A stretch of 64,000 nt of DNA from Gekko japonicus (lineage: Eukaryota). The stretch's first letter is position 1. Each line of letters opens with the position of its first letter. The stretch is from contig NW_015161423.1 in assembly GCF_001447785.1 (NCBI RefSeq), forward strand, positions 622,700 through 686,699. Reading direction: 5' to 3'. This document shows positions 45,614 to 48,600 of this stretch, piece by piece. Position numbers: made by a program.

Positions 45614-48600
45614 TGATTATTCTCTAATCTTCCATCTCCCCTCCTTTCCAACACTAGCACTGACTCCTGCTAGGATCCTAAAATGGGTGAGGATTGAGTG
45701 AAAAAGGTAGTTCCCATTTCAAGAGAATGATGTTGCATCAAAGCCCTTATTATCTCATCCCATGTATGTGTGAGAGACTAGACAAGAATGTAATTTCCTT
45801 CATCCCAGCATGTGTAAAGAACCAGCTGAGGAAGTCACACTCTGGCTGCAGTTATTTCACCCTCAATTCAAACTCAAGTCTTAAACACTCCTGAAATCTC
45901 TTTGATGTCCTATTAGAGTACCATTCTCAGAGTGATACTAAGCAGTTTTGGAAGGTGGATATCACTCCAAATGGTTATCTTCAAAAGATTAATTTCTTTG
46001 TGACCTTAGGGGAAAGTCGGAGAACCAGGGAAGCCAGGCAAGGATGGAAAGGTATGTATTAAAGCATTTTTCAGTTCCCCAGAATATAATGCATGTTTTT
46101 TGCATTAAGGAATGATGAAGGGAGGAGTAAAATGCAGAGAGTACTGGTCATTTTATGTCTACTTCATTTAGCTATGGCCAACTAAGGGCCTGACAGTTGA
46201 CTCAGTAAAGTATTCTAGGCACTGATGGCTCAAAAAGCAGTGCCATCTGAGGCCACAATCTCTGGCAGTTTTCCCATGCTACCTCTCACTGATCACTGCC
46301 ACCTCTGCCTCTCAGCATGTCAAGAGGCATATATCTCCCAGTCCCATTTTCTCACCAAAGCTTTCAAACACAACATGGGGTGGGTGGGAGGGAGGCAAAT
46401 AAACTCTCTCCACCCTGTATCTCAGACAGCGCTTTAGGGTCACTAGAAAACTACTCATCTGACCCCAAAGATAGCAGTTTTATGCAACTACAGTGTGATG
46501 GAGTGGTTTTCCAATTCCTCATGATTCTCCTACTTACTACTTAGAATAGTTTCTGCATTCATGAAATAGAAGCAAACTGTATGTTGTTTAAGCAGAAATA
46601 AATGGTAGAAACCCTATTATACATACTGTAGAGCTTCTCAGTTTTTTACTTGCTCATTATGTGATACGCTTTTATCTTCAGGGCTTGCCAGGACTTCCTG
46701 GACCAAAGGAGAGTAAAGAAACACAGAATAAATTCCAAATAATATGGATGCCTTTTAAAATTACAAATGTTTTCTGTGGGAAAACATCTGAAATACAGCA
46801 AAATCCCCAGTGTGATTATTTACCCAACTCTCATGATGGTGATAAGCATCCCAGTTGTAAAGGAATTAGCTACTGATGCTTTGAAAACTAGCAGACCAGA
46901 TATGGCTGCCTGGAAAAAAAATGTCCTGTCCATTTAATAGAGACTTAATGGGGTATTATTTATCTGGTGATATTACTTACCTCCATGCTGTGTAAATCTT
47001 CAGCTGCCCAGTTCTACACGTTAAGCCTCTATTAAAGGGACATGGCATTTTTCTCCAGGCCTATTGGCAACTGAAAAACCAGAACTCTGCAATTAAATAG
47101 TAAGAATTAATTAACTTTTTAAAATCCTGAATTCTCTTGTTGGGACTCAACTTGATGAGATGCACAAAAGACCCATGACTGGATCTCATAAAATCTTTAA
47201 TTGCATTTAAAAGCAACTCTATGCTGTGGTATAGGGGGTTACTCCCCTCATGCTGTTTCCCAGATAAAAATTGGCTCCCTAAAGCAGTTATTTGCCTCAG
47301 GAAGAAGAAAAGCCTGCATCTATCTTTGAAACAGTACAGAAGGAAAGGGTTAACTCCCCCCCCCAGCTGTGCCATTTTCTTGATTAACTTCCCCCTGCAA
47401 CTGCTCTTTGCCCTGATGTTCCCAATCCAGTTGCTTCTCCCCCACATCTGTTTTGCACTAAAAGTTTGAATTCCATTATTAGGAATTCAACTGACACAAT
47501 CTAATTGTCTCTTACTTGAGGATTCTAAAGGGGGGGGGGGTTATAGCTTTTATTTGAATTCTCTGGGTACCGAGGTATCTTCCTTAGATGTTTAGTTTAT
47601 ATTCCTGTTCCTGCAGGAGAAGGCTGAAAGTTTTTAGTCTGTCCACTTCAGCTCTGTCTGTCCACTTCAGCTCTATCATTTCTCTCATTTTTCATTTTCA
47701 GGGAGAACCCGGAGTTCCAGGATACCATGGAAGAAAGGTACGAACAAAACGTTTGAGAAGCCCAAAACCAAAGAACAAAAAAGTACCACAGTGTTTTAGA
47801 TGCATAAAAGTGGACCTGAGCCATCTGGGAAAGTGTTGGAAAAATACACCATCCTCTCCTTCTGCATATGCATGTATACCAGCACACCCTAGCTATAGCA
47901 CTTCTGTCATTTCCTACCTTGACTGGGAGTGACTGGGACTGAAGTAAGTGTGACTTCCCCTTGAACCATCTCAAACTCTGTCCATTCCCCATGGGCAGCA
48001 TCTGTTATAAGAGGGTGGGATTGGGGATGATTCCAGGTTTTCAAGTGCTACTAAGCTTCTTAGTGGCTTAGGACAGTTCCTGCCAGGAGAGTCTGGGGAT
48101 GGAAAAAACTGTAAACTCCTAAAGATTTTATACTCTCCTGGTGAAAATTTCTTTTGCATTTGCACTCATGCAAAATGTTATAAGCAGTAGCATTTAGGCC
48201 CCAGTAATCTGTGCAGAGTCTTAGCCCCCCATCCTTTTTTTTCCGGAACAGGACCGGGGCAGCAAATGGGGACGAGGCTGGTCTGATGAAACCACGGGCC
48301 AGGTTTTTGTCTATGAACTTGCGCAGTTCATCTTTCTCCGCCGGGCCCATGGCATAAATGCATCCCTTAGGTAGTTTTTGGCCAGGCAATATTTCAATGC
48401 TACAGACTGAGTGTCTATGAGGGGGGAGCTCATCGGCCTCTTCCTCCTCAAACACCCTGGCCAAATCCCAGTACTCGGGGGGAATGGATAACAATTCCTC
48501 CTGAGCCAGGCACACTCTGGGAGATTCTGCAGTAGGCTGCTGGCCCCACTTTGGGTCCCACCTGTGCTCTTGACACCTGGGGGAGATGAATTGTACCTTC

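What the first reader, a model, noticed from the sequence alone, without database searches (positions are those of the whole stretch)
46682..46714. Non-canonical GA 5' splice site on an intact COL13A1 collagen exon
Seen: the 27-nt exon GLPGLPGPK has a good acceptor but ends AAG|GAGAGT, which matches the MAG|GURAGU consensus everywhere except +2. All 17 other donors are GT. The nearest GT (46713) adds 4 nt, shifts the frame and gives TGA at 59572-59574. Established: rare GA-AG introns exist, and non-canonical donors usually match the consensus strongly at the other positions. Inference: this is a true GA-AG intron, a recently inactivated exon whose skipping keeps the frame, a weak site that tunes NMD through the +4 GT, or an assembly error.
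Basis: partly seen in the sequence, partly recalled or inferred. Interest (0 to 1): 0.7.

Follow-up and report, generated by a model that had tools for sequence, protein, structure and literature searches.

The report
Collagen mini-exon with GA donor
A 27-base collagen exon is intact, but the splice signal after it reads GA where GT is the rule; most likely the signal is disabled and the exon is skipped in frame, which is a fairly ordinary event.

Summary
The sequence facts hold. Window 46682-46708 is a 27-nt phase-0 exon (GLPGLPGPK). It follows ttttatcttcag and is followed by GAGAGT. The other 14 Gly-X-Y exons I found on this strand all have GT donors. Apart from +2, the GA site equals the donor of exon 8309 (AAG|GTGAGT). 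Only 7 of 3398 GA dinucleotides have flanks this good, so this is a real or former donor, not chance. The GT four bases on is weak. Using it shifts the frame to a TGA at 59572-59574.

The gene name is not supported. The only named relative found is a turtle fragment named collagen XXIII, collinear with three window exons. No collagen XIII sequence was available to compare.

No reads, transcripts or vertebrate genomes were available, so the readings cannot be separated.
- Best guess (0.45): a real T-to-A change disabled the donor, and the exon is skipped in frame, removing three triplets.
- Rival: a working GA-AG intron (0.2).
- Rival: a base-call error (0.15).
- Rival: NMD tuning through the +4 GT (0.05).

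Interest is modest.

The parts
46010..46051 (+). Upstream exon, 42 nt (GKVGEPGKPGKDGK), donor AAG|GTATGT. It ends Gly-Lys, so the Gly-X-Y register breaks (G-X-G) whichever exon follows.
46660..46681 (+). Pyrimidine tract and AG acceptor of the exon (..cgcttttatcttcag). A possible branch site, ctcat, lies about 26 nt upstream of the exon.
   Evidence: The branch site is my reading against the yUnAy consensus, which I recalled.
46682..46708 (+). 27-nt phase-0 exon, GLPGLPGPK: three intact Gly-X-Y triplets, no GT inside.
46709..46714 (+). Donor hexamer GAGAGT, with A at +2 (46710) where T is expected. It is one substitution from the GTGAGT of exons 8309 and 2314.
46713..46718 (+). Nearest GT (AGA|GTAAAG), a weak cryptic donor 4 nt downstream. 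Using it shifts the frame.
46709..47701 (+). 993-nt intron with GA...AG ends. It holds a 41-nt inverted repeat (46908-46948 / 47021-47060).
46874..46876 (+). First in-frame stop if the intron is read through from the exon (55 further residues).
47702..47737 (+). Downstream exon, 36 nt (GEPGVPGYHGRK), strong acceptor (0.9 pyrimidine), donor AAG|GTACGA.
59572..59574 (+). TGA reached in the shifted frame if the +4 GT is used. It lies 49 nt before the 59623 junction, and at least one further junction (62434) lies downstream.

Best explanation
The A at 46710 is a real base of this genome, either fixed in the lineage or one allele of the sequenced animal. It arose by a single T-to-A change in a formerly strong AAG|GTGAGT donor. 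A less likely origin is a 4-nt GAGA insertion in front of an AAG|GTAAAG donor.

With A at +2 the site is a poor substrate for the major spliceosome, so the 27-nt exon is no longer defined and is mostly skipped. Exon 46010-46051 then joins exon 47702-47737. Because the exon is 27 nt in phase 0, skipping removes exactly three Gly-X-Y triplets and keeps both the reading frame and the triple-helix register. The membrane collagen is nine residues shorter and otherwise normal. A minority of transcripts may use the weak +4 GT and be lost to NMD.

What is shown:
- the exon and donor anatomy;
- the frame arithmetic;
- the weakness of the +4 GT.

What is inferred:
- that the base is real;
- that GA is not spliced here;
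- that skipping is the main outcome and is tolerated.
For: (1) The exon is symmetric: 27 nt, phase 0 on both sides. Its loss is therefore frame-neutral and register-neutral.

(2) The donor is one substitution from a donor used elsewhere in the same gene (exons 8309 and 2314, GTGAGT). Its good flanks are what a fresh mutation would leave behind.

(3) The helper that makes the best-studied vertebrate GA donor work is absent. In the FGFR genes that helper is a canonical GT 6 nt upstream plus downstream intronic elements, according to passages of PMC4176328 and PMC7072748. This exon holds 0 GT.

(4) The mismatch at +2 splits the pairing to U1 into runs of 3 and 5 (U1 register recalled).

(5) The cryptic +4 GT is weak: matrix score 1.46 against 5.51-11.97 for 14 real donors. 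Skipping is thus more likely than cryptic-site use.

(6) In collagen XIII, a relative in the same family, complicated in-frame exon deletions are documented, and they are proposed as common in the family (Discussion passage of PMC4678570).

(7) From recall, not from a call: U at +2 is needed for the second step, which is why GA sites are called 'dead-end'; and +2T>A variants are treated as splice-null in human genetics.
Against: - The exon shows no second defect. The acceptor, three Gly codons and open frame are all intact. Any inactivation must therefore be recent, though 27 nt gives this little power.
- Working non-canonical donors do exist in vertebrates. The ITPR1 GA-AG intron was validated by RT-PCR. 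Some are lineage-specific: ACTR10 is AT-AG in primates and GT in other mammals.
- In one blood RNA-seq study, 17.9% of 168 rare canonical splice-site variants showed wild-type splicing only (summary passage of PMC11144818). A changed dinucleotide is therefore not proof of failure.
- I have no transcript, read or ortholog evidence for skipping.
Confidence: 0.45

Rival explanations
1. This is a working GA-AG intron of the major (U2-type) spliceosome. U1 and U6 recognise AAG|GAGAGU through its otherwise full consensus, cleavage occurs at 46708|46709, and the exon is included, constitutively or as a regulated cassette.
For: - The donor matches the consensus at 8 of 9 positions. It has 7 Watson-Crick pairs plus 1 wobble out of 11 to U1, against 5-9 Watson-Crick pairs for the 14 GT donors.
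- The exon and acceptor are intact.
- GA-AG introns are documented in FGFR1-3 and in ITPR1 intron 24.
- 76% of 184 human non-canonical sites take part in alternative splicing, and some are lineage-specific.
Against: - The flanks are equally expected from a fresh mutation.
- There is no GT 6 nt upstream as in FGFR; the exon has 0 GT.
- Neither COL13A1, COL23A1 nor 'collagen' occurs in the main text of the human survey. Its supplements could not be seen.
- Such sites are very rare.
- +2A is normally non-productive (recalled).
Confidence: 0.2
2. This is an assembly or base-call error. The animal has T at 46710 and an ordinary AAG|GTGAGT donor.
For: - One base separates the site from a donor used elsewhere in the gene.
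- The window is a gapped scaffold, with a 970-N run at 50335-51304, so it is not a finished sequence.
Against: - All 14 other exons are clean, with no frameshifts or stops.
- Single-base substitution errors are rare in most assemblies (recalled), and nothing here points to low quality at this spot.
- This reading is not testable with these tools.
Confidence: 0.15
3. This is a regulated unproductive-splicing switch. The GA site is silent and the +4 GT (46713) is used, so inclusion of the exon shifts the frame to TGA 59572-59574 and NMD lowers expression.
For: - The frame shift and stop are real.
- The stop lies upstream of at least two further junctions, 59623 and 62434, so NMD would be expected (50-nt rule; passage).
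Against: - The +4 GT is a poor donor: AGA|GTAAAG, no G at -1 or +5, 5 Watson-Crick pairs plus 1 wobble to U1, matrix score 1.46.
- There is no evidence of conservation or use.
- A compensating acceptor at 47706 would replace a Gly of the helix (my reading).
Confidence: 0.05

Closest known systems
GA donor of FGFR1, FGFR2 and FGFR3 (Twigg 1998; Brackenridge 2003). I saw only the reference entries and what PMC4176328 and PMC7072748 say of them. The paper itself is not held.
   Same: A U2-type intron that starts GA and has an otherwise consensus-like donor.
   Different: The FGFR site is an alternative donor that depends on a canonical GT 6 nt upstream and on downstream intronic elements. Here the exon has no GT at all, the only nearby GT is 4 nt downstream, and that GT is out of frame.
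ITPR1 intron 24 GA-AG (PMC4176328 passages; TOGA2 preprint legend)
   Same: A GA-AG U2 intron with a nearby GT that misleads aligners and annotators.
   Different: [quoted passage not shown] Here nothing is known about transcripts.
ACTR10 AT-AG, primate-specific non-canonical donor (PMC4176328)
   Same: A lineage-specific change of a GT donor that still splices. This is the model for the novel reading.
   Different: The changed position is +1 (AT), not +2. Its use is documented by transcripts.
In-frame cassette exons of collagen XIII and other membrane collagens (MACITs) (PMC4678570 Discussion)
   Same: Short collagenous exons whose omission keeps the frame and the protein's key parts. This is the model for tolerated skipping.
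   Different: Those exons are skipped by regulation with intact splice sites. Here the donor dinucleotide itself is changed.
GA-AG-rich genomes of Eurytemora affinis and Oikopleura dioica (PMC7072748)
   Same: GA donors flanked by AG upstream and A downstream.
   Different: There it is a genome-wide trait (3.2% of supported sites in one species), possibly tied to a U1 variant. Here it is 1 of 15 donors in a vertebrate gene.

Membership tests
Functional GA-AG U2-type intron | Intron begins GA and ends AG | tested here: met
   46709-46710 is GA and 47700-47701 is AG.
Functional GA-AG U2-type intron | U2-like consensus at the other donor positions | tested here: met
   AAG|GAGAGT. The flank score of 6.64 is reached by 7 of 3398 GA sites.
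Functional GA-AG U2-type intron | The junction is seen in transcripts | not testable with these tools
   No RNA data or transcript collection was available.
Functional GA-AG U2-type intron | GA is kept in orthologs while the exon stays under selection | not testable with these tools
   No vertebrate genome collection was available. The protein searches gave no named relative that covers this exon.
FGFR-type helped GA donor | A canonical GT 6 nt upstream of the GA | tested here: not met
   The exon holds 0 GT.
U12-type intron | A donor of the /RTATCCTT type | tested here: not met
   The donor reads GAGAGTAA. The U12 motif is recalled.
Collagen triple helix (Pfam PF01391) | Gly-X-Y periodicity and a profile match | tested here: inconclusive
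   The periodicity is perfect in the exon and its neighbours. Single exons score just below the cut-off: the 33-aa exon gets 26.5 bits against 27.2, and the 21-aa exon gets 17.3 bits. This is expected for such short pieces.
Collagen XXIII (COL23A1) | Collinear high identity to a named collagen XXIII protein | tested here: met
   Turtle K7G615 (P0266) residues 128-136, 137-145 and 146-162 match window exons 298, 8309 and 13039 at 8/9, 8/9 and 17/17. This is one fragment, and its name was given by its source.
Collagen XXIII (COL23A1) | Closer to XXIII than to the paralogs XIII and XXV; transmembrane and NC1 parts present | not tested
The N-terminal exons lie outside the window.
   None of the 120 proteins listed, and none of the 4, is named XIII. 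No reference was available to compare.
Alternative splicing coupled to NMD | A premature stop more than about 50 nt upstream of a later junction | tested here: met
   The TGA at 59572-59574 lies 49 nt before junction 59623 and 76 spliced nt before junction 62434.
Alternative splicing coupled to NMD | The frame-shifting site is actually used and is conserved | not testable with these tools
   No transcripts or orthologous DNA were available. The site itself is weak.

The most novel reading that the evidence does not exclude
This is a lineage-specific GA-AG intron of the major spliceosome that is spliced efficiently without any helper GT upstream. It sits on a conserved 27-nt exon of a transmembrane collagen (XXIII-like). 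That would be a natural case showing that a donor with full consensus at the other eight positions can tolerate A at +2.
Probability: 0.2. Interest if true: 0.55.

Novelty: new member of a known kind. Interest (0 to 1): 0.3.

Why it matters
If the GA donor works, it adds a rare helper-free GA-AG intron to the handful known in vertebrates, and it gives a clean natural substrate for asking how the spliceosome copes with A at +2.

If it does not work, it is a small example of how collagen genes built from 9-nt-multiple, phase-0 exons can lose an exon without harm.

It is also a practical warning for annotation. Pipelines that insist on GT will either drop the exon or pick the +4 GT and predict a truncated protein.

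The gene label should be corrected in either case.

Tried and rejected
**Searches that led nowhere**
- The 33-aa exon alone was too short for the word-indexed search.
- Sent with its own intron read-through, it returned only generic collagens. Of 174 hits, 120 were listed, and none was named XIII, XXIII or XXV.
- The same exon against 1.84 billion representatives gave 239 hits. The best 150 had at most 73% identity and carried no names.
- The Gly-rich ORF at 25798-25870 found nothing: 41 candidates, none at E<=10. It also breaks the phase, so I dropped it as an exon.

**An unused lead**
- A blind ungapped screen of all 261 stored hits singled out one unnamed 389-aa representative, P0223. It matched seven window exons in collinear order, including 8/9 for this exon directly before the next exon's match.
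- It has no name or source and may be human or from a person's sample. I did not print, align or search with it, and I give it no weight.
- P0264, P0265 and P0267 are also unnamed and were left aside.

**Literature**
- Brackenridge 2003 is not held.
- Searches for +2T>A assay data found nothing.
- A peptide search found one unrelated paper.

**Ideas rejected**
- U12 intron: the donor motif is wrong.
- A-to-I editing: it would turn GA into a G-like second base, not U.
- Exon duplication: no second copy of 46052-47701 exists in the window.
- Rescue of the +4 GT by an acceptor at 47706: in frame, but it replaces a helix Gly.
- An alternative last exon through AATAAA at 46727-46732: the frame stays open to 46874, and the hexamer occurs 67 times on this strand, about 1 per kb.
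- snRNA or other RNA genes: Rfam gave 0 matches.

Full report
**What is there**

Window 46682-46708 is a 27-nt open stretch, GGC..AAG, that reads GLPGLPGPK. It is preceded by ..cgcttttatcttcag and followed by GAGAGTAA. The intron that would follow, 46709-47701, is 993 nt and runs GA...AG. The intron before it, 46052-46681, is 630 nt and runs GT...AG. The donor fits MAG|GURAGU at every position but +2.

On the + strand I found 15 Gly-X-Y exons in all, starting at 298, 2314, 8309, 13039, 27596, 29744, 30869, 34060, 34190, 45437, 46010, 46682, 47702, 59561 and 62408. The other 14 all have GT donors.

A 970-base run of N at 50335-51304 was left untouched.

**Is it more than chance?**

Yes. I built a position matrix from the 14 other donors and left out +1 and +2. 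On that matrix the GA site scores 6.64, exactly the value of exon 8309's donor AAG|GTGAGT. Only 7 of 3398 GA and 8 of 3411 GT dinucleotides on this strand reach that score. The matrix is circular for the 14 donors it was built from.

The site also sits exactly at the end of three perfect triplets that start exactly at a good acceptor. Sixteen + strand runs of three or more Gly-X-Y follow an AG directly. Fifteen of them are the exon set, and this is the only exon without GT after it. So this is a real or formerly real donor.

**The alternatives in cis**

- The exon holds no GT.
- The next GT, at 46713, has the context AGA|GTAAAG, with no G at -1 or +5. It makes 5 Watson-Crick pairs plus 1 wobble to the U1 register, and its matrix score is 1.46 against 5.51-11.97 for the real donors. 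Using it adds 4 nt. That stop is 49 nt before junction 59623 and lies upstream of at least one more junction (62434), so NMD would be expected.
- Read-through of the intron stays open for 55 more codons, to 46874-46876.
- Skipping the exon removes 27 nt in phase 0, that is three triplets, with no change of frame or register.
- Exon 46010-46051 ends Gly-Lys, so a G-X-G break is present with or without the exon.

**Which gene?**

I searched exon by exon and never joined exons into a spliced model. That joined step was left out. The word-indexed search needs 40 residues, so each single exon was sent as a contiguous window stretch running on into its own intron.

- The 33-aa exon returned only generic collagens. 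120 proteins were listed, and none was named XIII, XXIII or XXV.
- The full scan of representatives likewise gave nothing above 73% identity, and no names.
- The exon at 13039, which carries a distinctive break in the helix, found one named relative. It is a 171-aa turtle protein (UniRef K7G615, P0266) that its source calls collagen type XXIII alpha 1.
- Its residues 128-136, 137-145 and 146-162 match window exons 298, 8309 and 13039 at 8/9, 8/9 and 17/17, in order and without gaps. It lacks exon 2314.

This points to the collagen XXIII gene, a paralog of collagen XIII in the membrane-collagen (MACIT) family (PMC4678570, passages). It rests on one fragment with a source-given name, and I had no named XIII or XXV sequence for contrast. 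I put the XXIII label at roughly two in three.

The turtle fragment does not reach the exon in question. One unnamed representative stood out in a blind screen. It may be human or from a person's sample, so it was not used. Whether the exon is present in relatives therefore stayed unchecked.

**What the literature says**

All of this comes from passages found by term search, except where another source is noted.

- GA-AG introns of the major spliceosome exist and are conserved in FGFR genes. There the GA site depends on a canonical GT 6 nt upstream and on intronic elements (PMC4176328; PMC7072748).
- ITPR1 has a GA-AG intron confirmed by RT-PCR. It was mis-annotated through a nearby GT (TOGA2 preprint legend).
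- Among 184 human non-canonical sites, 28% are shared with mouse and 76% take part in alternative splicing. Some are lineage-specific conversions of GT.
- Neither COL13A1, COL23A1 nor 'collagen' occurs in that paper's main text.
- In a blood RNA-seq study of 168 rare canonical splice-site variants, 17.9% showed wild-type splicing only and 3.6% showed in-frame exon skipping (PMC11144818 summary).
- Collagen XIII shows complicated in-frame exon deletions, and these are proposed as common in the family (PMC4678570 Discussion).
- The original FGFR papers were not readable.
- The statement that +2A blocks the second step ('dead-end') is my recollection, apart from the title of Brackenridge 2003.

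**Weighing**

The strong flanks and the intact exon do not discriminate between the readings. A fresh T-to-A change in AAG|GTGAGT, a working GA donor and a base-call error all predict them.

What tilts the balance toward a disabled donor:
- +2A is normally non-productive.
- The FGFR-type helper GT is absent.
- The exon is the kind whose loss costs nothing in frame or register.
- The family tolerates exon omission.

I therefore put a real, donor-disabling change with in-frame skipping at 0.45. It may be fixed or polymorphic, and I cannot tell which. I put a working GA-AG intron at 0.2, an assembly error at 0.15 and NMD tuning through the weak +4 GT at 0.05. The rest is unassigned.

**Verdict**

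The interpretation remains open, because the decisive data (reads, junctions, orthologous donors) are outside these tools. At best it is a new member of a known rare class. At worst it is a tolerated exon loss or a single wrong base.

Noticed in passing
window 51387-55520, minus strand (intron 47738-59560): An L1-like LINE retrotransposon lies inside the 11.8-kb intron. The ORF at 51387-53618(-) matches reverse transcriptase RVT_1 (E 2.2e-39). The ORF at 54864-55520(-) matches the L1 ORF1 RNA-binding domain (E 7.5e-6). The N run at 50335-51304 abuts it.
   Followed up: partly
window 48000-50334: A G+C-rich block (0.55, against about 0.40 elsewhere) with long open frames on both strands and no Pfam match, just before the N run.
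   Followed up: partly
window 46908-46948 and 47021-47060: A 41-nt inverted repeat, 85% complementary, in the intron that follows the GA donor.
   Followed up: no
window 46010-46051: The upstream exon is 42 nt, not a multiple of 9, and ends Gly-Lys. The helix therefore has a G-X-G break at this junction whichever exon follows.
   Followed up: no
window 2314-2349: A 36-nt exon-like piece (GDKGAMGIRGLW, good GT donor, weaker acceptor) is absent from the turtle collagen XXIII model. It may be a cassette exon, a lineage-specific exon or a false exon.
   Followed up: partly
window 25798-25870: A Gly-rich ORF with AG and GT flanks. It has no relative in the protein search and breaks the phase of the neighbouring exons, so it is probably not an exon.
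   Followed up: yes
window about 18685, 24760 and 33699: Three copies of an interspersed repeat share flanking sequence around a Gly-rich frame.
   Followed up: no
window 46727-46732: An AATAAA hexamer lies 19 nt after the exon end. The hexamer occurs 67 times on this strand, and the frame has no stop before it, so this is most likely chance.
   Followed up: yes
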